NCBI GenBank assembly: GCA_038063775.1
Contig: JBBTUK010000008.1
Location: forward strand, 1 to 48,598
DNA: 48,598 nt
Direction of reading: 5' to 3'
Source of the DNA: Patescibacteria group bacterium
Lineage (GTDB): Bacteria > Patescibacteriota > Minisyncoccia > Moranbacterales > UBA2206
Made by a program: the position numbers and the translations under genes. Below the pieces are notes generated by a model. The model worked only from the letters and a program-made list of their open reading frames with translations, ran no database searches and was not told where the DNA came from. Positions 3,626 through 39,883 of the stretch are shown in pieces (position 1 is the stretch's first letter; each line of letters starts with the position of its first letter).

Positions 3626-3631
3626 ATTATG

Positions 3632-3767
3632 CCCGGTAGTGAAATTTCGATGGGCCGCAAGCGGCCACAAAACCGAGCATTTGTTAATTAAGCTAAAAAT
3701 ATAATTAAAGAATTTCAGCGTCGAAATAAGACAGAATTAATTTTGATATCGAAATTCTACTACCGGG
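3632..3767. mobile_element. MITE-like element with 20-nt terminal inverted repeats, flanked by a TATG duplication
   Basis: CCCGGTAGTGAAATTTCGAT (3632-3651) against ATCGAAATTCTACTACCGGG (3748-3767): 18 Watson-Crick pairs, 1 G-U and 1 mismatch. TATG at 3628-3631 and 3768-3771. Internal GGCCG-CAAG-CGGCC hairpin. Confidence 0.65.
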
Positions 3768-3768
3768 T

Positions 3769-4248
3769 ATGCACGATCTGATAATTTCCTGGTTTTCCAA
3801 TTTTCCTAAAGAGCTGGCCACGTTTCTAATAGCAATTATTCCGGTGACGGAACTCCGAGCCGCTCTGCCGCTGGCGTATAAGGTTTATGGCTTAAGCGCT
3901 TTTTGGTCTTGGTTCTACTCGGTAATGGGCACATTTTTTGCGATGGTTCTGATAGTGTTGCTTCTGGATCCGGTAGCGGAGTTTTTGTCCAATCACATCG
4001 GTTTTTTTAAAAGATTTTTTGACTGGCTTTTCGAACATACGAGAAAGCGCGCCAACGGCAAGATGGAAAAATACGGATCTTGGGCTATTTTCATCTTGGC
4101 CGCCACGCCCATACCGTTTCTCGGCGGCATGACCGGGGCGGTGGCGGCGTTCGTGTTCGGAGTGCCATTGAAAAAATCAATACCTTTACTGCTTTTTGGA
4201 ACTATGGTGTCAGGAGTAATAGTTTTAGCAATAACAATTTATTTATGA
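3769..4248 (+). CDS. Small integral membrane protein (putative small multidrug export protein family)
   Basis: Four predicted hydrophobic helices. The N-terminal VTELRAALPLAY motif recalls the COG2426/Sm_multidrug_ex family. Confidence 0.55.
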   Translation: MHDLIISWFSNFPKELATFLIAIIPVTELRAALPLAYKVYGLSAFWSWFYSVMGTFFAMVLIVLLLDPVAEFLSNHIGFFKRFFDWLFEHTRKRANGKMEKYGSWAIFILAATPIPFLGGMTGAVAAFVFGVPLKKSIPLLLFGTMVSGVIVLAITIYL

Positions 4249-8202: not shown

Positions 8203-9333
8203 GAGATAATAAACTATCTGCCCGAAAGAAACTCCGGCGTCCCCACGCGATATTTTTTTACTCGAGTAAACTCCTTTGCGTTCGAGATAGGAAGCAATTA
8301 TTTTATTATTGGCGATTCCGCCGGCAAAGAAACCAGCTTTTAGCTTAGAGCTTTTGGCTTCCAGCTTTAAAACTTTATATAAACCTTGGGCGATATAAAG
8401 CTGAGCGGTGGCGGCGAGGCGACGCTTGTCCCTGTTGATATTTTTAACTAGATATTCAAAAAGAGGAGTGGTCATTATCCCGTAACCCGTAACCCATAAC
8501 CCGTAACCCGTAATTCTTTTGATCTCTGGTTCTAGATCTTTGTAAGGTCTAGTGGAGTTTTTTTCGAGCAAGATCGCGGGGCTATGCTTATATTTCCTAA
8601 CATTACCTGAAAAGCCAAGCAGGACGGAAACCGCGTCCAAAATTCTTCCGGTGCTGGAAGTTTCCTGGCAGTTGAAATTTTGTTGAAGCTGATTATATAA
8701 TAGCTCGAATTGATTACGAGAGTAATATTTTTTAACAAGTCGATACAATTTATCTTTGGACATAAATTTGTCGAGGATGCTGATTAGCATGCGAGCCGGC
8801 TCGTTTACGGCCAAATCACCACCTATCAAAATTTGATTTTCCAAATGTCCGATTCTTTCAATACTTTTTACTTTTTCCTTCTTACTTTTTATTTTGAATA
8901 ATTCTCCACCCCAGATTTTTCTATCCAATCCGTAGCCGGTGCCGTCGCAGGCGATCCCGTAACCCGTAACCTGTAACCCGTAACCCGGTTCTTGGACAAT
9001 CTTATCTCCGATGGCAGAAAATACATGCGCTATATGATGTTGCACCTTTATATGGTTGGCTTTGTATTTTTTGCTCAAACTCTCTCCCAAAATAGTCGTC
9101 CTATAAAGAGGATGAAGATCGGTTAAAATTATGTTCGGCTTGGCTCGATTATTTTTCAAAAATTTTGCCACTGTCTGAATGAGTTTTTGAAAATTTTCTT
9201 CGCTTAATAAATCACCGAAAGATTCCGACCTATAAATCACTCCTTTGTAAAAAACTGAAAAATTACCGTCGGATTCCGGTCCCAAAGCCAGCAGGCAGTT
9301 ATGGGTATTTGCGGAGAAATTTATTGATTCCAT
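8182..9333 (-). CDS. hypF: HypF-like protein consisting only of the C-terminal Kae1-like domain
   Basis: Aligns by eye to E. coli HypF residues ~380-750: LALGPESDGNF, TDLHPLY, VQHHIAHV, ACDGTGYG...IWGGE, GGDLA, SSTGRILDAV, FAGGIANN, RGDAGVSFGQ. No acylphosphatase, Zn-finger or YrdC-like part. The 3' end overlaps hypE by 21 bp. Confidence 0.8.
   Translation of the reverse strand: MESINFSANTHNCLLALGPESDGNFSVFYKGVIYRSESFGDLLSEENFQKLIQTVAKFLKNNRAKPNIILTDLHPLYRTTILGESLSKKYKANHIKVQHHIAHVFSAIGDKIVQEPGYGLQVTGYGIACDGTGYGLDRKIWGGELFKIKSKKEKVKSIERIGHLENQILIGGDLAVNEPARMLISILDKFMSKDKLYRLVKKYYSRNQFELLYNQLQQNFNCQETSSTGRILDAVSVLLGFSGNVRKYKHSPAILLEKNSTRPYKDLEPEIKRITGYGLWVTGYGIMTTPLFEYLVKNINRDKRRLAATAQLYIAQGLYKVLKLEAKSSKLKAGFFAGGIANNKIIASYLERKGVYSSKKISRGDAGVSFGQIVYYLLADSGD
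8479..8513 (-). repeat. Heptanucleotide tandem array (GGGTTAC)n, five units, in frame inside the hypF-like gene
   Basis: Plus strand reads cccgtaa cccgtaa cccataa cccgtaa cccgtaa. It encodes ITGYGLWVTGYGI. Confidence 0.95.
8956..8986 (-). repeat. Second heptanucleotide array (GGGTTAC)n, about 4.5 units, in frame inside the hypF-like gene
   Basis: Plus strand reads cccgtaa cccgtaa cctgtaa cccgtaa cccg. It encodes PGYGLQVTGYGI. The 34-nt block matches 8477-8510 at 32/34 positions. Confidence 0.95.
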
Positions 9334-9373: not shown

Positions 9374-10156
9374 ATGCCTATGAAAGCCAAGAGGGATTTT
9401 ACCATAAAAACAAAGCCTCGGATTGCGATAGTTAGCCTGACATCCTGCGAGGGATGCCAATTTGCTTTGCTTGATTTGGGAAAACTTTTTTTTGATCTTA
9501 TTAATCAGGTGGAAATGGTAGATTTTCGTTTGCTGGAAGACGAGGATGATACGGGAGTCAAGCTCGATCTGGTTTTGGTTGAGGGAAACCCCATAACGGA
9601 AGAAAATGTCAGGTTTCTTAAAAGATTAAGAAAAAGGAGTAAAATTTTGGCGGCTCTGGGAAACTGTGCGGCCATGGGGGGAATTCCGGAAATAAAAAAT
9701 TACCAAAAAGGCGTTAATACCATTAAGCATGTTTATAAATACGTACAGGGCATAACCAATCCGAAAATAAGAGAAATTGATAATTTCGTGAAAGTTGACT
9801 TTGTTTTTCCGGGTTGTCCGATAACGGGTGAAGAATTTTTAAAATATTTTCCGGAACTTTTAGCTGGCCGTATTCCCCAAATTCCTGACCGACCAGTTTG
9901 TGTTGAGTGCCGAAAAAAGGGAAATCGCTGTTTGCTTCTAGATAAAAAACCATGTTTTGGTCCGATGATTTTGGGCGGCTGCGACGCGGTTTGTCCGACG
10001 GCCCGGATGATGTGCCAGGGCTGCCGAGGACTGCGACCGGCCGGAAACGTGAAAGCCATGCGCCAAACTCTCAAAACTATGATGACGGACGAGCAATTCG
10101 AAAATACGGCGGAAATTTATGGCCTCCGCGATGATATTGAAGCGCGGGGAAATTAG
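9374..10156 (+). CDS. Cytoplasmic (group 3-type) [NiFe]-hydrogenase small subunit
   Basis: No Tat signal. IAIVSLTSCEGCQ, LVEGN, GNCAAMGGIP and GCP motifs, plus a C-terminal CxxC/CxxxC ferredoxin-like cluster region. Confidence 0.85.
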   Translation: MPMKAKRDFTIKTKPRIAIVSLTSCEGCQFALLDLGKLFFDLINQVEMVDFRLLEDEDDTGVKLDLVLVEGNPITEENVRFLKRLRKRSKILAALGNCAAMGGIPEIKNYQKGVNTIKHVYKYVQGITNPKIREIDNFVKVDFVFPGCPITGEEFLKYFPELLAGRIPQIPDRPVCVECRKKGNRCLLLDKKPCFGPMILGGCDAVCPTARMMCQGCRGLRPAGNVKAMRQTLKTMMTDEQFENTAEIYGLRDDIEARGN

Positions 10157-10169
10157 TCAAGCCAAAAAA

Positions 10170-11102
10170 ATGGCCTTTTTAAAAAAATCATTATCGCTTA
10201 TTTTTGTCGTGATTGCAGTGGCCGCCGCCGGATTTGTGGTTTTTAAAAAGGGCCAGCCGGAATTGAGAAATTATATTCCAATTACCAAGCCCTGTTCATC
10301 GCCGCTTGCCTATGCCATTGGTAATGTTGATTCTCGATTTAACATAAGCAAGGACGGCGCGGCTGTGCTGGCTCAAAAGGCGGAGAATGTTTGGGAATCA
10401 CAGACGGGACTAGATTTGTTCCAATATGATCCGAACGCGCAACTGAAAATAAATTTTATATTTGACGCGCGGCAGCAGCAAGCGATTGAGGCCGTGGAAC
10501 TGGAACAAAAACTCGGAAAATTGAAAATTTCGGACAACAGCCTAAAAGTGCAATACAACAATCTGTATGCCGAGTATTCCAAAGAAATTGACAATTACAA
10601 CTCGTTGGCAAAAAAATACGAGAAGGAAATAAGTTCATATAACAAAGAAGTGAATCGCTGGAATAAAGTTGGGGGTGCGCCGCCGGATGAATATGAAAAG
10701 CTCAACAAAGAACAGGACGCTCTGGAAGCGATGCGAAAAAAACTGGAAAAAGAAAGAAAGAGCATCAACGATTTGATTAATCAGATGAATTCTCTGGCCA
10801 GCCGCGAAAAGCAGGTGATCAGCAGTTACAACGAATCATTGAACACTTTCCGGAACAAATACGGCGGAACGCGGGAATTTGAAAAAGGTATTTTCAATGG
10901 CCAAGAAGTTAACATTTACCAGTTTAATGAAGATTCAGATTTGGAATTAACAATCACTCACGAATTGGGCCATGCGCTCGGCATAGGGCATGTGGAAAAT
11001 ACCCAGTCAATCATGTATTATTTAATGGGAGAGCAGGACTTGGATCAGCCGACTCTTACAAGCGAGGATTTATCAGCGTTTAAAAGTGTTTGTCAATTAT
11101 GA
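10170..11102 (+). CDS. Membrane-anchored matrixin-like zinc metalloprotease with a long coiled-coil insert
   Basis: N-terminal TM helix (LSLIFVVIAVAAAGFVVF). HELGHALGIGH followed by SIMYY (Met-turn). About 150 aa of heptad-like K/E/N-rich sequence sits between the N-terminal and catalytic parts. Start taken at ATG 10170. Confidence 0.75.
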   Translation: MAFLKKSLSLIFVVIAVAAAGFVVFKKGQPELRNYIPITKPCSSPLAYAIGNVDSRFNISKDGAAVLAQKAENVWESQTGLDLFQYDPNAQLKINFIFDARQQQAIEAVELEQKLGKLKISDNSLKVQYNNLYAEYSKEIDNYNSLAKKYEKEISSYNKEVNRWNKVGGAPPDEYEKLNKEQDALEAMRKKLEKERKSINDLINQMNSLASREKQVISSYNESLNTFRNKYGGTREFEKGIFNGQEVNIYQFNEDSDLELTITHELGHALGIGHVENTQSIMYYLMGEQDLDQPTLTSEDLSAFKSVCQL

Positions 11103-11103
11103 A

Positions 11104-11206
11104 CCCCGTTAGAATTTTCAATTTATATATTGCGGGGCACTAAAAGTAATTAGTTTAATAATTTTCGCTGTTGACTTATAGCAATAGGTGTAAAATTATA
11201 ACGGGG
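11104..11206. mobile_element. MITE-like element (CCCCGTTAGAATTTT terminal inverted repeats) with TGAA duplication
   Basis: CCCCGTTAGAATTTTC (11104-11119) against the reverse complement of 11191-11206, CCCCGTTATAATTTTA: 14/16 (15/15 minus one mismatch over the first 15). TGAA at 11100-11103 and 11207-11210. Confidence 0.7.
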
Positions 11207-12465
11207 TGAACATAAAAATCAACCACATCGCGAAAATGGAAGGTCACGCGGGATTCATGGCCAGCGTTCTTCAGGGCGACGTGAAGTCGGCCAAGCTGGA
11301 AATCCAGGAAGGAATCCGTCTGATTGAAGGCGTGCTGATTGGCCGGGAATATAAAGATATGCCGATCGTGGCGCAACGGATTTGTGGAATTTGTCCGGTA
11401 GTACACAATTTAACCTCCATCAAAGCTTTGGAAAACGCTTTTGGGGTTGAGGTATCAAAAGAAACGAAAAAACTCAGGGAAGTTATGGAACTGGCGCAAA
11501 TTATCCATTCCCACGGATTGCATCTTTTCTTTTTATCGCTGGCCGATTTTTTGGATATGGAAAACGATTTGAATTTAATGCAAAAATATCCGGACGAGAC
11601 CAGAAAAGCCATTAGAATCCGGGAATATGGAATGGATATAGTTCGGGTTATCGGAGGCCGAGTAGTTCATCCACTGACCAATGAAGTGGGGGGATTCAAG
11701 AAAATTCCGGATAAAGAAGCGCTGAAAAAGATAGTTTCAGATTCCAAGGAAATATTGGGGCTAGCCATTGAATTGGGCGAGCTTTTTAAAAAAATAAAAA
11801 CTCCTGAATTTTACCGAAAAACCGAATATGTTTGTCTTGGAAAAAAAGGAGAATATGCCATTTATGATGGCGATATCGTTTCTTCCGAGGGCTTGCACAT
11901 ACCAGTGGCCAAGTTTGAAGCTAATTTTAACGAACTGCAAAAGCAGAAAGAAGTGATCAAAAAAGTCGAGCATGATGGAGAAAGTTATATGGTCGGCGCC
12001 ATTGCCAGAATCAATGTAAATCGGGAAAAACTTTCCTTGCAAGCAGAAAAATATTTGGAAAGTTTGAAGTGGAAATTTCCAGACTTCAATCCTTTCCATA
12101 ATATCTTGGCGCAAGTAACGGAAGTTATTCACGCCATTGAAAAATCAGCCGAACTTTTGCAGGAACTTATCAATTCTGATTTAAGGCAAGTTTTGACCAA
12201 GGAATATCAAATTAAAGAAGGTAGCGGAACGGCGGCCGTGGAAGCTCCGCGAGGGACTTTGTATTATCATGTGGAAGTGGATGGCAAAGGTTATATAAAG
12301 AATGTGAATATTATCACTCCCACCGCCCAATTCCTGGCGAATTTGGAAGATGATATAGCCAAATATATTCCGGAAATTCTGGATTTAGACGATAAAGAAA
12401 AAGAAAAAAAATTGCGAGCCTTTATCCGGGCTTATGATCCGTGCATCAGTTGCGCGGTGCATTAA
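11206..12465 (+). CDS. Cytoplasmic (group 3-type) [NiFe]-hydrogenase large subunit
   Basis: N-terminal RICGICPVVH and C-terminal DPCISCAVH Ni-binding motifs. The IAKMEGH N-terminus needs the GTG 11206 start, and an in-frame TAA lies at 11191. Confidence 0.9.
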   Translation: MNIKINHIAKMEGHAGFMASVLQGDVKSAKLEIQEGIRLIEGVLIGREYKDMPIVAQRICGICPVVHNLTSIKALENAFGVEVSKETKKLREVMELAQIIHSHGLHLFFLSLADFLDMENDLNLMQKYPDETRKAIRIREYGMDIVRVIGGRVVHPLTNEVGGFKKIPDKEALKKIVSDSKEILGLAIELGELFKKIKTPEFYRKTEYVCLGKKGEYAIYDGDIVSSEGLHIPVAKFEANFNELQKQKEVIKKVEHDGESYMVGAIARINVNREKLSLQAEKYLESLKWKFPDFNPFHNILAQVTEVIHAIEKSAELLQELINSDLRQVLTKEYQIKEGSGTAAVEAPRGTLYYHVEVDGKGYIKNVNIITPTAQFLANLEDDIAKYIPEILDLDDKEKEKKLRAFIRAYDPCISCAVH

Positions 12466-13862: not shown

Positions 13863-15434
13863 ATGTTCAAAATAATAATAAAAAACGGAACAATCATTGA
13901 TGGCAGCGGACAGCCGATGTATAAAGCGGACATTGGCATCAAGGAAGACCGGATTGCGGCTATCGGAGAGCTCCATAATGAAAAGTGTGAAATCGAAATT
14001 GACGCAGCCGAACTCCTGGTTTGTCCCGGAATAATTGATGTCAACAATCATAGCGATACATATTGGCAGATATTTGCTAATCCGAATTTGGAAAGTCTTG
14101 TTTATCAAGGAGTTACCACGATTATCGGAGGAAATTGCGGATCATCGCTCGCGCCGCTGGCTGATGCCGAAGCCATTGAATCTATCCAAAAATGGGTCAA
14201 TATAAAACGGGTCAATTTAAATTGGTTGAGCGTTGAAGAGCTTTTTGAAACTATTGAGCAAATAGGCCTGTCAGTGAATTTTGTGACGCTTATCGGTCAC
14301 GGAACTCTGCGCCGCGGAATCATAAAAAACGAAATGCGGAATTTGACGCCCAAAGAACTCGGCTATGTGGAAAAAATGTTAGACAGTTCCTTGCGGGATG
14401 GAGGTATCGGAATGTCAACCGGACTTATTTATACACATGCGCGCTTGGCCTCCACTGAAGAATTGATAGCGTTGGCCAAAATAGTTAGAAAATTTAACGG
14501 CATTTATACAACTCATATCAGAAATGAGCGGGAAAAATTCCTGGAGGCGGTTGAAGAGGCGCTGAAAATTGCGGAAGAATCCGGTGTCAAACTTCACATA
14601 TCACATCTCAAAGTAATGGAAAAGGAGAATTGGAGTTTGTTTGAAGCCGCGCTAACGGCAATTGAAAAAGCATATGAGCGGGGTGTAGATGTAACTTTTG
14701 ATGTTTTTCCTTATACTAACACCGGAACCGTTTTGTATACTCTTCTGCCTGAATGGGTATCGGCCGGGGGCAAAAAAATGCTAATTAATCGGCTAAAAGA
14801 TTCTTCCATCAGGGCTAAAGTTATTTCCGAGATGAAAGAATCCGGTTTTGATTATTCCAAAATTGAAATTGCTATATCGTCTCTCAATAGGATATTGAGC
14901 AAGAGAAGGATTTTGGATATAGCCAAATCACAGGAAAAATCAGTGGAAGATGCGATAGTAGACGTGTTGATAGCTTCCGAAGGCAGGGTCATCACTTCCA
15001 TTGAAAGCTTGAGCGAGGAAAATATTGAAAAAGCGGTGGCTCATCCATTATCCATAATTTCCACTAATGGAGCGGGTTACAGTATCGAACATTCAAAAAC
15101 CGGAGAAGTTGTCCATCCCAGAAGCTTCGGAACTTTTCCGAGAATCATATCCCAGTATGTTCTCGGAAAAAGAATTATCAGCTGGGAAGCGGCTATTCGG
15201 AAAATGACGGGTATTCCAGCCCAAAAATTCGGCATCAAAAAAAGAGGAGAAATAAAAGAAAAAAACTTTGCCGATATTATGATCATTAACCGGGATAAAT
15301 TAGCGGATTTAGCCACGGCGGAAAATCCATATCAATACAGCAAGGGAGTTGAATTTGTCTTAGTTAACGGTGAAATTATCTTAAGCGAAGGCGTTTATGG
15401 AGGAGGAAAGGGCGGAAGAATATTAATCCGATGA
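13863..15434 (+). CDS. D-aminoacylase (N-acyl-D-amino-acid deacylase) family amidohydrolase
   Basis: PGIIDVNNHSD, GGNCG, HIRNE and HISHLK motifs in D-aminoacylase order. Confidence 0.7.
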   Translation: MFKIIIKNGTIIDGSGQPMYKADIGIKEDRIAAIGELHNEKCEIEIDAAELLVCPGIIDVNNHSDTYWQIFANPNLESLVYQGVTTIIGGNCGSSLAPLADAEAIESIQKWVNIKRVNLNWLSVEELFETIEQIGLSVNFVTLIGHGTLRRGIIKNEMRNLTPKELGYVEKMLDSSLRDGGIGMSTGLIYTHARLASTEELIALAKIVRKFNGIYTTHIRNEREKFLEAVEEALKIAEESGVKLHISHLKVMEKENWSLFEAALTAIEKAYERGVDVTFDVFPYTNTGTVLYTLLPEWVSAGGKKMLINRLKDSSIRAKVISEMKESGFDYSKIEIAISSLNRILSKRRILDIAKSQEKSVEDAIVDVLIASEGRVITSIESLSEENIEKAVAHPLSIISTNGAGYSIEHSKTGEVVHPRSFGTFPRIISQYVLGKRIISWEAAIRKMTGIPAQKFGIKKRGEIKEKNFADIMIINRDKLADLATAENPYQYSKGVEFVLVNGEIILSEGVYGGGKGGRILIR

Positions 15435-15435
15435 A

Positions 15436-15497
15436 CCCCGTTAGATATGCGGGGAAATGCTGCGGGTAATAATGTAATGATAAATTATCTAACGGAG
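15436..15497. mobile_element. MITE-like element (CCCCGTTAGATA terminal inverted repeats) with TGAA duplication
   Basis: CCCCGTTAGATA (15436-15447) against the reverse complement of 15486-15497, CTCCGTTAGATA: 11/12. TGAA at 15432-15435 and 15498-15501. Confidence 0.7.
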
Positions 15498-16897
15498 TGA
15501 AGCTTGAAGATTTAAAAGGAAAAAAAATTACGGTCATGGGACTGGGGTTGCATGGTGGCGGTGTTGGCACGGTCCACTTTTTGCATTTAGCCGGAGCGCA
15601 AATAACGGTTACGGATCTCAAGTCCAAAGAAGAACTTGCGCCCTCGCTGGAAAAATTGAAAGAATTGAAAGGCATCAAGTATGTTTTAGGCCAACATCGT
15701 CCAGAGGACTTCACGGGGGCTGAAATGGTGATCAAAACACCTCCAGCGCCATGGAGCAATAAATATATAAAGTTAGCGCTGGATAAAAATATCCCGGTAG
15801 AAATAGATGCCAGTCTTTTTTTTAAACTTTGTAAAAATCCGATTATCGGCGTTACTGGTACCAAGGGAAAAACGACTACCGCAACCTTGTTATGCGAAAT
15901 TCTGAAAACCGCCGGAAAAAATCCTTTGAAAGCCGGAATCGGTCAGGTGTCCGTTTTGGATAAGCTAAAAGAACTTAAATCCGACAGCTTGGTGGTTTTT
16001 GAGCTTTCTAGCTGGCGCTTAAGCGCTCTCGGCCGATGTAACTTGAGTCCCAAAATTGCGATCTTAACCAATCTTTATCCGGATCACTTGAATTATTATA
16101 AAACATTTGAGCTGTATTTAAGGGATAAAAAATACATATTCTTAAACCAAAAGCCTGGTGATCTTTGCGTGGTTAACTGGGACGATGAAATTTTAAATAA
16201 ATTGGAACCAGAAATTAAATCTCAGCTAATTAAATTTTCAAAGCAAAAAATTTCCAAAGGCAAGTCAGTCTTTATAAGCGAGGGGGCGATTTATCTGAAT
16301 AACGGCATTGACGAAAAAAAAGTCTTAGAAGTTTCGGAAGTTAAGTTGAAAGGCGAGCATAATTTGTGGAATATTTTGGCCGGTATCGGAGCGGCCTACG
16401 CTCTCGGAATAGATCTGTCTGTTATTCGCAAAACCATCCTCAATTTTAAAAATATTCCCCATCGTCTGGAAATAGTGAGGGAATTAGACGGAATAAAATA
16501 TTATAATGATACGGCAGCTACTATGCCAGAAAGCGCAATTTCCGGGATTAATTCTTTTGAAGAGCCTGTAATCTTAATTTGTGGCGGAGCGGATAAAAAT
16601 TTAGACATGTCTCTTTTGGCGAAGACTATCCGGAAAAAAGTCAAGGGCGTAATATTTTTAAAAGGCATGGCGACAGACAAAATAATGGCGGAAATTAAAA
16701 AAATTATTCCCACGGAAGAAAAGGGCAAAGACTTCACGGTTGTGGAAACTATGGACAAAGCAGTTGAATTGGCGAGAGTTGTCGCCGAAGCGGGAGATGT
16801 GGTTCTGCTTTCGCCCGGCGCGGCGAGCTTCGGCCTTTTCGCTAATGAGTTTGATCGGGGCAATAAGTTCAGGGAGGCAGTAAATAAATTGGTTTAA
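15497..16897 (+). CDS. murD: UDP-N-acetylmuramoylalanine--D-glutamate ligase
   Basis: KKITVMGLGLHGGG and GVTGTKGKTTT P-loop, with Mur ligase middle and C-terminal motifs. GTG is the only in-frame start after the TAA at 15470. Confidence 0.88.
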   Translation: MKLEDLKGKKITVMGLGLHGGGVGTVHFLHLAGAQITVTDLKSKEELAPSLEKLKELKGIKYVLGQHRPEDFTGAEMVIKTPPAPWSNKYIKLALDKNIPVEIDASLFFKLCKNPIIGVTGTKGKTTTATLLCEILKTAGKNPLKAGIGQVSVLDKLKELKSDSLVVFELSSWRLSALGRCNLSPKIAILTNLYPDHLNYYKTFELYLRDKKYIFLNQKPGDLCVVNWDDEILNKLEPEIKSQLIKFSKQKISKGKSVFISEGAIYLNNGIDEKKVLEVSEVKLKGEHNLWNILAGIGAAYALGIDLSVIRKTILNFKNIPHRLEIVRELDGIKYYNDTAATMPESAISGINSFEEPVILICGGADKNLDMSLLAKTIRKKVKGVIFLKGMATDKIMAEIKKIIPTEEKGKDFTVVETMDKAVELARVVAEAGDVVLLSPGAASFGLFANEFDRGNKFREAVNKLV

Positions 16898-39281: not shown

Positions 39282-39352
39282 TAATAATATCGGGTGTGCA
39301 TAAGTCGTATTGCTTGAAATATCACAAGATGTTAGAATGGACAAAACATGAA

Positions 39353-39450
39353 TCCCGTTACAAAATTCACTTAAGACTTGAAATAACGGGATTTTCGCAA
39401 CAGTTTTTGTTTTTAATGCCATTAAATCGTATATCAAATTCGTAACGGGA
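39353..39450. mobile_element. MITE-like element (TCCCGTTAC... terminal inverted repeats) with TGAA duplication and an extra internal arm
   Basis: TCCCGTTACAAAATTC (39353-39368) against the reverse complement of 39435-39450, TCCCGTTACGAATTTG: 13/16. TGAA at 39349-39352 and 39451-39454. An internal TAACGGGATT (39384-39393) pairs with 39351-39360. Confidence 0.6.
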
Positions 39451-39572
39451 TGAAAAAGCTGAAATGGCCGAGCGCAATTAAATGGTTCTGCAAAGTGACA
39501 GGAAGGTCGCCCATAAAGGCGATTTTTTTTATGATATTTTTGGTTTTCAATAGTAATAAAAAACATTCGTGA
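39450..39572 (+). CDS. Candidate 40-aa hydrophobic peptide (MKKLKWPSAIKWFCKVTGRSPIKAIFFMIFLVFNSNKKHS)
   Basis: Open frame whose ATG is rebuilt by the MITE end, as at two verified genes. No SD and no homology recognised. Confidence 0.3.
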   Translation: MKKLKWPSAIKWFCKVTGRSPIKAIFFMIFLVFNSNKKHS

Positions 39573-39590
39573 TCCGAAAGGAGGGGCCAT

Positions 39591-39815
39591 ATGATAGGTG
39601 ACGGAATTCCGAAAAGGAGAAAAGGAGGATTGACAGAGACTAAGGTTGAGCAGGTGCCGTGTCCGATGCTGAAAGGAGCAACATGCAGTGCACCCAAAAC
39701 GAGGGCGAAACTTTCAGATCCATCAGCGTGTTTCGTCGACAATTCATGCGTTCCTGGGCAACGATTTCCCAAGGAATTCACCGAAGAAGCTCAGAAAGTA
39801 GTATGTCATAGGTAA
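39591..39815 (+). CDS. Candidate 74-aa basic, Cys-containing small protein
   Basis: Very strong SD (AAGGAGG, 39578-39584) 6 nt before the ATG, followed by a strong hairpin. The region looks GC-richer than its flanks by eye. No homology recognised, and it could instead be a structured RNA. Confidence 0.4.
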   Translation: MIGDGIPKRRKGGLTETKVEQVPCPMLKGATCSAPKTRAKLSDPSACFVDNSCVPGQRFPKEFTEEAQKVVCHR

Positions 39816-39837
39816 GACATGACTACGCGAAACAAAA

Positions 39838-39868
39838 GTCCCGGCGAGAGGAGCACCTCCGCCGGGAC
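39838..39868. terminator. Strong hairpin between the convergent small ORF and miaA. Terminator for miaA (T-rich on the minus side).
   Basis: GTCCCGGCG-A-GAGG-AGCA-CCTC-CGCCGGGAC. On the minus strand it is followed by TTTTGTTT. Confidence 0.7.
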
Positions 39869-39883
39869 GATATTATTTATGGG

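What the first reader, a model, noticed from the sequence alone, without database searches (positions are those of the whole stretch)
11100..11210. MITE inserted into an ancestral ATGA stop/start overlap, with the hydrogenase large-subunit start codon rebuilt from the element's last base
The left junction reads ttATGAA|CCCCGTTAGAATTTT and the right junction reads AAAATTATAACGGGG|TGAACATA. The first 15 nt of each end match as inverted repeats at 14/15 positions. Both ends are flanked by TGAA (11100-11103 and 11207-11210), which looks like a target-site duplication. Deleting the element plus one TGAA restores ...TTATGAACATAAAAATC. That gives ATG AAC ATA AAA ATC, the same codons 2-5 as today's large subunit, overlapping the matrixin TGA stop. 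Today's start is GTG 11206, made of the final G of the element plus the TG of the duplication, and it has no Shine-Dalgarno. The orphaned ATG (11099) now opens a mini-ORF, MNPVRIFNLYIAGH. In mRNA the two inverted repeats can pair, which would tie the upstream stop codon to the downstream start codon. That suggests translational coupling or start-codon occlusion. Three more elements in this window (3632, 15436, 39353) have the same architecture. No transposase is present in the window.
Basis: seen in the sequence. Interest (0 to 1): 0.78.

Follow-up and report, generated by a model that had tools for sequence, protein, structure and literature searches.

The report
Start-codon-rebuilding MITE in a Moranbacterium
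A 103-base mobile DNA hairpin landed exactly on the start codon of a hydrogenase gene in an uncultured Moranbacterium; its 4-base target duplication plus its own last G rebuilt an in-frame GTG start, and the same element family turns up at start codons far more often than chance in many metagenomes.

Summary
Window 11104-11206 is a non-autonomous transposon (MITE) with 14/15 terminal inverted repeats (CCCCGTTAGA...) and a TGAA duplication on both sides. In 82 of 86 related loci hydL starts with ATG at this codon. Only the window, L004/L005 and L030 have GTG, and only they carry the element. The other three window elements are real, and each has an empty site in a relative.

Of 145 copies, 96 have identical 4-bp flanks of varied sequence, so the duplication is genuine. 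ATGAA start codons are occupied 14/241 times against 0/423 for non-start, non-coding ATGAA (p=5e-7; p=3e-5 in the metagenome set alone). ATGA stop/start overlaps are occupied 7/20 times.

Orthologous copies stay 72-79% identical, while 4-fold sites of the adjacent gene (32-46%) and ordinary spacers are saturated. This suggests the copies are under selection.

The lack of a Shine-Dalgarno is not special, because only 1 of 36 genes in the window has one. How hydL is expressed (hairpin-mediated coupling, or a promoter inside the element) is inferred, not shown. No transposase was found. This is a new MITE family with an unusual link to start codons.

The parts
11104..11206 (+). MITE copy #4 (103 nt), family with CCCCGTTAGA termini
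   Evidence: Terminal repeats match 14/15 and are flanked by TGAA on both sides. Homologous copies sit at the same site in L004 and L030. The element is absent from 82 of 86 related loci.
11104..11118 (+). left terminal inverted repeat
11192..11206 (+). right terminal inverted repeat; its last G is the first base of the GTG start
11100..11103 (+). left copy of the TGAA target-site duplication; it also holds the matrixin TGA stop (11100-11102) and the TG of the orphaned ATG
   Evidence: Of 145 family copies, 96 have identical 4-bp flanks.
11207..11210 (+). right copy of the TGAA duplication (TG of the GTG start plus AA of codon 2)
11099..11143 (+). orphaned ancestral ATG now opening the mini-ORF MNPVRIFNLYIAGH*, which runs through the left arm
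   Evidence: In L004 the equivalent ORF runs through to a TGA that overlaps the GTG; this was read directly from the L004 sequence printed.
11206..12465 (+). NiFe hydrogenase large subunit gene with a GTG start
   Evidence: Pfam NiFeSe_Hases. 100% identical to an NCBI Patescibacteria MAG protein. The N-terminus is conserved with relatives that start with ATG.
10119..11102 (+). upstream matrixin-like (Peptidase_M10) gene whose TGA stop overlaps the orphaned ATG
11171..11199 (+). promoter-like TTGACT-17-AATTAT, ending 6 nt before the GTG (candidate only)
   Evidence: The consensus scan gives 9/12. L004 has TTGACA in the same place. The 6-nt gap is the modal position of TATAAT boxes upstream of hydL in relatives.
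11168..11187 (+). internal hairpin CTGTTG/CAATAG, kept in all three orthologous copies
   Evidence: The RNAalifold consensus has a one-sided G-U to A-U change.
15436..15497 (+). MITE copy #2 at the MurD start (TGAA at 15432-15435 and 15498-15501; GTG at 15497)
   Evidence: The orthologous copy is in L004. L001 has an empty ATGA-overlap site, and 33 other loci start with ATG.
39353..39450 (+). MITE copy #3 (termini TCCCGTTAC...GTAACGGGA; TGAA at 39349-39352 and 39451-39454; ATG rebuilt at 39450)
   Evidence: Empty sites are present in L206 and L208.
3632..3767 (+). element #1: related architecture but a different terminal repeat (CCCGGTAGT...) and a TATG duplication (3628-3631, 3768-3771) that duplicates the whole ATG
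   Evidence: The fold has z = -5.8. L001 has an exact empty site, AAATTATGCATG.

Best explanation

Shown. The family has CCCCGTTAGA...TCTAACGGGG termini and makes a 4-bp target duplication, mostly T-V-A-A. This copy inserted into the TGAA of ...TT-ATG-AAC-ATA..., the hydL start codon plus codon 2, which in this lineage is also the TGA stop of the matrixin gene. The left TGAA keeps the upstream stop. The right TGAA, preceded by the element's invariant last G, reads G-TGAA. An in-frame GTG-AAC is therefore recreated, and the protein is unchanged apart from the initiation codon. The insertion is old: it is shared with L004 and L030. It has been kept far better than neutral sequence. Insertions of this family at ATG-AA start codons, especially at ATGA stop/start overlaps, are strongly over-represented.

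Inferred. Translation starts at GTG 11206 without a Shine-Dalgarno, as for nearly all genes here. The most likely route is that ribosomes finishing matrixin, or translating the mini-ORF from the orphaned ATG, melt the left arm and so free the GTG held in the right arm. This would preserve the former ATGA coupling. A promoter-like TTGACT-17-AATTAT that ends 6 nt before the GTG may in addition, or instead, give a leaderless hydL mRNA.
For: Anatomy.

Empty and occupied sites. Of 86 syntenic loci, 82 start hydL with ATG. GTG occurs only in the element carriers W, L004/L005 and L030. At MurD, GTG plus the element occurs only in W and L004/L005; 34 other loci start with ATG, and L001 shows an ATGA-overlap empty site. 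Element #1 has an exact empty site in L001. Element #3 has empty sites in L206 and L208.

Family. Of 145 copies, 96 have identical 4-bp flanks of varied sequence.

Start-codon bias. Of 17 ATGAA-type copies, 15 sit on the start codon of a long ORF, and 7 of the 17 also sit on an upstream TGA stop. Occupancy is 14/241 for start ATGAA against 0/423 for non-start non-coding ATGAA (p=5e-7). It is 7/20 for ATGA overlaps against 7/221 for other starts (p=2e-5). The bias is reproduced in the metagenome loci alone: 10/211 against 0/375 (p=3e-5).

Start at the GTG. A TAA lies 12 nt upstream in frame. N-terminal codons differ only synonymously, and L030 has ACA where others have the codon-11 ATG.

Constraint. 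The copies are 72-79% identical, against 32-46% at hydL 4-fold sites. Their inner parts score z=4.7-8.4 against shuffles, while ordinary spacers score z<1.

Shine-Dalgarno-poor genome: 1 of 36 genes. Promoter-like site.
Against: No transposase or autonomous element with these termini was found in the window or in about 2.1 Mb of related and metagenomic loci, so how the family moves is unknown.

The three orthologous copies show no compensatory changes in the terminal stem. The substitutions there break pairs. The stem is therefore not demonstrably selected as RNA.

The promoter-like hexamers are weak: 9/12 in W, and AATTCT as the second hexamer in L004 and L030.

L030 falls outside the (L001,(W,L004)) clade in a 4-protein NJ tree, while L001 and L002 have a clean ATG. 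The history therefore needs a precise loss, recombination, or a second insertion at the same site.

The ATGA overlap cannot be seen in any element-free relative at the hydL junction.

The occupancy rates come from contigs chosen because they carry a copy, so only the relative rates are meaningful.
Confidence: 0.85

Rival explanations
1. The element is a tolerated passenger with no role in expression. The insertion survived only because the GTG was regenerated, and copies pile up at gene boundaries because in a streamlined genome any imprecise deletion there would damage a gene (a deletion shelter).
For: The rebuilt start follows automatically from the terminal G plus a TGAA duplication. Copies are also enriched at G-TAA-A stop codons (7/45 against 19/519). 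Stem substitutions are disruptive, not compensatory. Internal sequences of different copies are unrelated.
Against: The TIR-less inner parts of the orthologous copies are conserved (z=4.7-8.4), whereas ordinary spacers between the same genomes are not. A deletion shelter protects against deletions, not against point substitutions.
Confidence: 0.25
2. The element mainly acts as a portable promoter, giving a leaderless or near-leaderless GUG-initiated hydL mRNA that is independent of the upstream matrixin gene.
For: TTGACT-17-AATTAT ends 6 nt before the GTG, and L004 has TTGACA. In 14 of 84 related loci a TATAAT match of at least 5/6 lies exactly 6 nt upstream of the hydL ATG. The genome lacks Shine-Dalgarno sites. 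MITE-borne promoters are known, for example in Correia elements (PMC10969869).
Against: The second hexamer is poor (AATTAT, AATTCT). In L030 the first hexamer is TTGGTT with a 16-nt spacer. Three promoter-like hits were found in the region against 1.4 expected by chance. There are no transcript data.
Confidence: 0.25
3. It is not a transposon but a conserved structured leader RNA (a riboswitch- or attenuator-like element) native to these genes.
For: It has a strong predicted fold and is conserved among three lineages.
Against: Clean empty sites exist at four junctions. The 4-bp duplications vary in sequence. More than 130 copies sit at unrelated loci with unrelated interiors. There is no Rfam match and no covariation.
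Confidence: 0.03
4. It is an IS200/IS605-type (PATE or REP-like) element that inserts 3' of a fixed TTCA/TGAA without duplication, with the second TGAA belonging to the element.
For: The reverse complement of the right junction (TTCACCCC) equals the left junction of subfamily B copies, which have constant TTCA...TAAA flanks.
Against: In the main family both flanks vary together (TAAA, TGAA, TCAA, CAAG, CGAG, TATA, TGGA and others) in 96 of 145 copies. The ends are true terminal inverted repeats.
Confidence: 0.03
5. hydL really starts at ATG 11236 (codon 11), as some public gene calls assume, and the GTG is irrelevant.
For: ENA and JGI gene callers give 409-aa products (P0002, P0003, P0007).
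Against: Codons 2-10 are identical in protein to relatives that start with ATG, and differ only synonymously among carriers. L030 has ACA instead of this ATG.
Confidence: 0.05

Closest known systems
Correia (NEMIS) elements of Neisseria and similar promoter-bearing bacterial MITEs
   Same: Roughly 100-150 bp elements with terminal inverted repeats and a short fixed duplication. They often lie immediately upstream of genes and can carry promoters and form mRNA hairpins (PMC10969869).
   Different: Correia elements duplicate TA and sit upstream of starts (own knowledge). This family makes a 4-bp duplication and sits inside the start codon, regenerating it. No promoter activity has been shown here.
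Rickettsia palindromic elements (RPE) and other repeats fused to ORFs
   Same: These are palindromic mobile repeats tolerated inside genes because they keep the reading frame (PMC10969869, PMC3184786). Relatives of this element do the same. One example is a 17-18 aa insert in triose-phosphate isomerase. Another is read-through from the orphaned ATG in L142.
   Different: The window copy is not translated into the protein. It has a stop after 14 codons, and 107 nt is not a multiple of 3. Instead a new start codon is built at its 3' edge.
Neisseria REP2 and Borrelia upstream repeats that contain a promoter, ribosome-binding site and ATG
   Same: The repeat supplies the start codon of the downstream gene (PMC3184786).
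   Different: Those repeats carry a complete expression signal. Here only one base of the start codon comes from the element, and the rest is duplicated host sequence.
IS1380 family insertion sequences and eukaryotic piggyBac
   Same: A 4-bp duplication (TTAA for piggyBac) and ends that begin CC(C)...(G)GG. piggyBac excises precisely, which would explain clean ATG sites in close relatives. These features are from my own recollection. The IS1380-piggyBac relationship is stated in PMC10813416.
   Different: No transposase was found, so this is only a lead. The target here is T-V-A-A or Y-N-N-R with a G preferred at -5, not strictly TTAA.
Translational coupling at ATGA overlaps, and start-site masking by long-range RNA pairing (for example phage MS2 coat/replicase)
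   Same: An upstream stop and a downstream start are held together, here by the base of the hairpin. Translation of the upstream frame would open the structure (own knowledge; inference).
   Different: Not demonstrated here. No covariation supports the stem.

Membership tests
MITE (non-autonomous DNA transposon) | terminal inverted repeats | tested here: met
   14/15 at 11104-11118 / 11192-11206; the termini are shared by more than 130 copies
MITE (non-autonomous DNA transposon) | target-site duplication of fixed length | tested here: met
   4 bp; 96 of 145 copies have identical flanks of varied sequence
MITE (non-autonomous DNA transposon) | small, with no transposase gene | tested here: met
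   The window copy is 103 nt; family copies of about 31-32 nt up to 212 nt were seen. The only ORF is a 14-codon mini-ORF.
MITE (non-autonomous DNA transposon) | dispersed multicopy family with presence/absence polymorphism | tested here: met
MITE (non-autonomous DNA transposon) | a cognate autonomous element with the same ends | tested here: inconclusive
   None was found in the window or in about 2.1 Mb of loci. The public collections could not be scanned for long elements.
IS1380 / piggyBac-related elements | CC...GG termini and a 4-5 bp duplication (feature list recalled from memory) | tested here: met
   CCCC...GGGG ends and a 4-bp duplication
IS1380 / piggyBac-related elements | DDE transposase of that family bounded by these ends | not testable with these tools
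   No autonomous copy was retrieved.
IS200/IS605-derived PATE or REP elements | no duplication; insertion 3' of one fixed tetra- or pentanucleotide; subterminal hairpins rather than terminal repeats | tested here: not met
   Variable duplicated flanks and true terminal repeats
In-frame palindromic elements (RPE-like) | the element is translated in frame as part of the host protein | tested here: not met
   The mini-ORF stops at 11141-11143, and 107 nt is not a multiple of 3. The feature is met by other family members.
Promoter-bearing MITEs (Correia-like) | a functional outward promoter | tested here: inconclusive
   Only a 9/12 consensus match at the right distance
Any described RNA family (Rfam 15) | covariance-model match | tested here: not met
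   No hit at E<=10 in 11000-11300; the window holds only two tRNAs

The most novel reading that the evidence does not exclude
This MITE family is 'self-healing' at ATG-AA start codons, because its terminal G plus a TGAA duplication always regenerates GTG-AA. It is preferentially inserted or retained at the stop/start junctions of operons in streamlined Patescibacteria. There the copies have been taken over by the host as expression modules: the hairpin bridges the upstream stop to the downstream start, or carries a promoter. That would explain why orthologous copies are conserved like coding sequence.
Probability: 0.25. Interest if true: 0.75.

Novelty: new variant of a known kind. Interest (0 to 1): 0.6.

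Why it matters
The finding shows how a transposon can sit inside a start codon without killing the gene. The same event has happened repeatedly and is strongly over-represented. About 5% of ATGAA starts and a third of ATGAA stop/start overlaps are occupied in the contigs that carry a copy.

It gives a concrete, testable case of mobile DNA being retained, and perhaps recruited, in the translation-initiation regions of very small Shine-Dalgarno-poor genomes.

It also has a practical side. Public gene callers truncate the affected genes: hydL is called as 409 aa instead of 419, and MurD as 453 aa instead of 466.

No paper in the library describes MITEs in Patescibacteria, and none contains these terminal sequences in this context.

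Tried and rejected
- Rfam search of the window and of 11000-11300 found nothing.
- Intron or ribosome-bypass readings were considered. They were dropped because an in-frame GTG is present and conserved, and because the elements have DNA-level duplications and empty sites.
- An IS200/IS605-like model (fixed TTCA target, no duplication) was prompted by subfamily B flanks. It was rejected for the main family because the flanks co-vary.
- A 5-bp duplication model (GTVAA) was rejected. At start codons the left copy is A and the right is G, while relatives have ATG.
- A search for an autonomous element looked at terminal-repeat pairs 400-4000 nt apart, solitary ends next to long ORFs, and a generic CC...GG repeat-plus-duplication scan. 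It returned only host genes between independent copies.
- Pfam scans of 20 window proteins found no transposase.
- RNAalifold on the three orthologous copies found no compensatory pairs.
- A first conservation test with lenient gap penalties was uninformative, because shuffles reached 73% identity. A MAFFT-based version timed out. The stricter score-based test is the one used.
- Reading-frame conservation of the mini-ORF was considered, because the lengths 103, 100 and 97 differ by multiples of 3. It was rejected because the individual indels are not multiples of 3 and W and L030 have early stops.
Full report
**Observation.**
- ATG lies at 11099-11101, overlapping the TGA stop (11100-11102) of a 327-aa matrixin-like ORF.
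- The arms are CCCCGTTAGAATTTT (11104-11118) and AAAATTATAACGGGG (11192-11206), complementary at 14/15 positions.
- TGAA lies on both sides, at 11100-11103 and 11207-11210.
- The GTG at 11206 opens a 419-aa NiFe hydrogenase large subunit, hydL. This protein is 100% identical to one from an NCBI Patescibacteria MAG, and its relatives are labelled Moranbacteria.
- The orphaned ATG opens MNPVRIFNLYIAGH*.
- As RNA, the two arms pair (MFE -27.5 kcal/mol, z = -2.8).

- 15436-15497 lies at the MurD start (TGAA flanks, GTG rebuilt).
- 39353-39450 has termini TCCCGTTAC...GTAACGGGA and TGAA flanks. An ATG is rebuilt because the last base is A.
- 3632-3767 has a different terminal repeat, CCCGGTAGT, and a TATG duplication that copies the whole ATG.

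**Empty sites.** Syntenic loci from relatives were fetched.
- hydL: the N-terminus is conserved (M-N/Q-I-K-I-N-H-I). Of 86 loci, 82 start with ATG at exactly this codon. GTG is found only in the window, L004/L005 and L030, and these are exactly the loci with a homologous element in front. L030 also has the matrixin ATGA overlap. L004 has a TAA stop 5 nt upstream of the orphaned ATG instead.
- MurD: only the window and L004/L005 have GTG plus the element, and 34 other loci have ATG. L001 shows the exact empty site, GATGAAACC, as an ATGA overlap with the amidohydrolase gene.
- Element #1: L001 has the exact empty site AAATTATGCATG.
- Element #3: L206 (the same genome as L004) and L208 have TAGAATGGACAAAATATGAGAAA... 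and ...ATATGAAAAAAAG. This is a small 21-codon ORF followed by a conserved terminator.

All four elements are therefore insertions.

A 4-protein NJ tree gives (L001,(W,L004)), with L030 outside. Element #2 then arose in the W/L004 ancestor, and #1 and #3 arose in the W lineage. Element #4 is older, or has a more complex history. L001 and L002, which carry other genes between matrixin and hydL, have a clean ATG.

- With up to two mismatches allowed, 145 copies were collected across all loci. Of these, 96 have identical 4-bp flanks.
- The flanks vary: TTTA/TAAA 50, TGAA/TTCA 22, TTGA/TCAA 11, plus CAAG, CGAG, TATA, TGGA and others. This is a true 4-bp target-site duplication with a T-V-A-A (more loosely Y-N-N-R) preference.
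- This rules out the IS200/IS605-type model, which I considered because of the subfamily B flanks.
- Interiors differ widely between copies. Minimal versions of 31-32 nt exist, as do nested and tandem copies.
- No autonomous element or transposase was found.
- CC...GG ends with a 4-bp duplication recall IS1380/piggyBac. That is a recollection, not a test.

**Start-codon association.** The target was restored in silico for each copy with a perfect duplication.
- Of 17 ATGAA-type copies, 15 lie on the start codon of a long ORF, and 7 of the 17 also lie on the TGA stop of a long upstream ORF.
- Per available site in the copy-bearing loci, the preferred target elsewhere is G-TAAA: 19/519 intergenic, against 4/1272 for ATAAA.
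- ATGAA is nevertheless occupied at 14/241 start codons and at 0/423 non-start non-coding sites (Fisher p=5e-7).
- ATGA stop/start overlaps are occupied 7/20, against 7/221 for other starts (p=2e-5).
- G-TAA-A stop codons are occupied 7/45, against 19/519 for intergenic sites (p=0.003).
- In the metagenome loci alone, which are independent of the window and its relatives, the figures are 10/211 against 0/375 (p=3e-5) and 3/16 against 7/195 (p=0.03).
- GTGAA and TTGAA starts are never occupied (0/86 and 0/144).

Absolute rates are inflated because the contigs were chosen for carrying a copy. The contrasts between site classes are not affected by this.

The rebuilt start is an automatic result of the invariant terminal G plus a TGAA duplication. 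The excess over neutral intergenic ATGAA needs either an insertion bias or better retention.

**The start is the GTG.**
- A TAA lies 12 nt upstream in frame.
- Codons 2-10 encode the same residues as in relatives that start with ATG. Among the three carriers they differ only synonymously.
- L030 has ACA where the others have the codon-11 ATG that some gene callers picked.

Public calls of 409 aa (P0002, P0003, P0007) and of a 453-aa MurD (L005) are therefore probably truncations.

**Constraint.**
- The three orthologous #4 copies are 72-79% identical, and the two #2 copies 74%. By contrast, 4-fold degenerate sites are 32-46% identical in hydL and 42% in murD.
- With the terminal repeats removed, the interiors still align at z=4.7-8.4 against shuffles.
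- Ordinary spacers between the same genomes give z=0.8 and -0.9, and different copies within one genome give z<=2.8.
- Third-position identity along hydL shows no recombinant patch near the 5' end.

This points to purifying selection on the inserted sequence. The substitutions in the terminal stem are disruptive and none is compensatory, so what is constrained is not shown to be the RNA stem.

**How it may work (inference).** The genome hardly uses Shine-Dalgarno sites: 1 of 36 window genes and 3 of 84 hydL loci have one. The missing Shine-Dalgarno at the GTG is therefore ordinary. Initiation without one generally needs an unstructured start region (own knowledge), and here the GTG lies in the right arm. 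There are two non-exclusive routes.
- Route (a): ribosomes terminating at the matrixin TGA, or translating the mini-ORF that always reads M-N-P-V-R through the left arm, open the stem and free the GTG. The GTG sits next to the stop at the base of the hairpin. In L004 the mini-ORF runs right up to a TGA that overlaps the GTG (sequence). The excess at ATGA overlaps fits this route.
- Route (b): TTGACT-17-AATTAT ends 6 nt before the GTG. This is the same 6-nt gap at which 14 of 84 related loci have a near-consensus TATAAT before the hydL ATG, and it suggests a leaderless transcript.

Neither route has been tested.

**Comparison and novelty.** Promoter-bearing MITEs (Correia), in-frame palindromic elements (RPE) and repeats that supply a promoter, ribosome-binding site and ATG are all known (PMC10969869, PMC3184786). 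I found no description of a MITE whose duplication plus terminal base rebuilds the start codon and which is enriched at start codons. I also found none of this terminal sequence, or of MITEs in Patescibacteria. I rate it a new variant of a known kind, of moderate to good interest.

Noticed in passing
L001 3088-3137; L030 3879-3925; L054 (TIM gene, near 1741-2115): A related palindromic element (CCC[CT]GTTAAAT...ATTTAAC[GA]GGG) is inserted in frame in the triose-phosphate isomerase gene. It adds 17-18 residues (HPVKS...FNGV) at the same site in three divergent lineages. It is absent from the window, L004 and at least 25 other loci, which makes it RPE-like.
   Followed up: partly
L001 3084-3141, L028 1225-1369, L030 1836-1897, L118, L156, L181: These subfamily B copies have constant, non-identical flanks TTCA|...|TAAA at unrelated loci instead of a variable duplication. 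The 4-bp duplication model does not explain this.
   Followed up: partly
window 39282-39883: Between gatB and miaA lies a conserved small unit: a TAGAAT box, a roughly 21-codon ORF or small RNA, and a terminator at about 39505-39530. A Cys-rich small protein gene follows, with a strong AAAGGAGG Shine-Dalgarno, which is exceptional in this Shine-Dalgarno-poor genome. MITE #3 sits on the small ORF's ATG.
   Followed up: partly
whole window: Only 1 of 36 long genes has a Shine-Dalgarno-like motif. Several genes have a TATAAT-like box 6-8 nt before the ATG, which suggests frequent leaderless mRNAs.
   Followed up: partly
window 9374-12465 and the syntenic loci: A matrixin-like metalloprotease gene sits between the hydrogenase small- and large-subunit genes in many Moranbacteria. 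L002/L003 add an 89-aa His/Cys-rich ORF and L001 adds two further genes at this junction.
   Followed up: no
window 11206-12465 compared with its neighbours: hydL of the window is closest to L002 and L001 (91% and 86-87%). The flanking gap, hydS and fba genes are closest to L004. This hints at recombination within the hydrogenase gene.
   Followed up: no
L142 (MurG) and L190: In some copies the orphaned ATG reads through the whole element in frame. This gives an N-terminal extension, for example MNPVRNSKNKQDYNSMSPQKQNKVSNGV-KILFTGGGTGGH.
   Followed up: partly
L089, L091, L099, L106, L126, L145, L157, L160 and others: One subfamily (...AAATTCC...ATTATTTC...) is always oriented the same way relative to the asymmetric target G|TAAA, although its terminal repeats are symmetric.
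   Followed up: no
window 8477-8524 and 8954-8987: Runs of the heptamer CCCGTAA/CCCATAA lie within the region of the minus-strand HypF-like gene.
   Followed up: no
L027 1490-1600; L063 1950-2040: An element copy lies next to a sequence resembling the conserved GAAAGTCC core of RNase P RNA.
   Followed up: no
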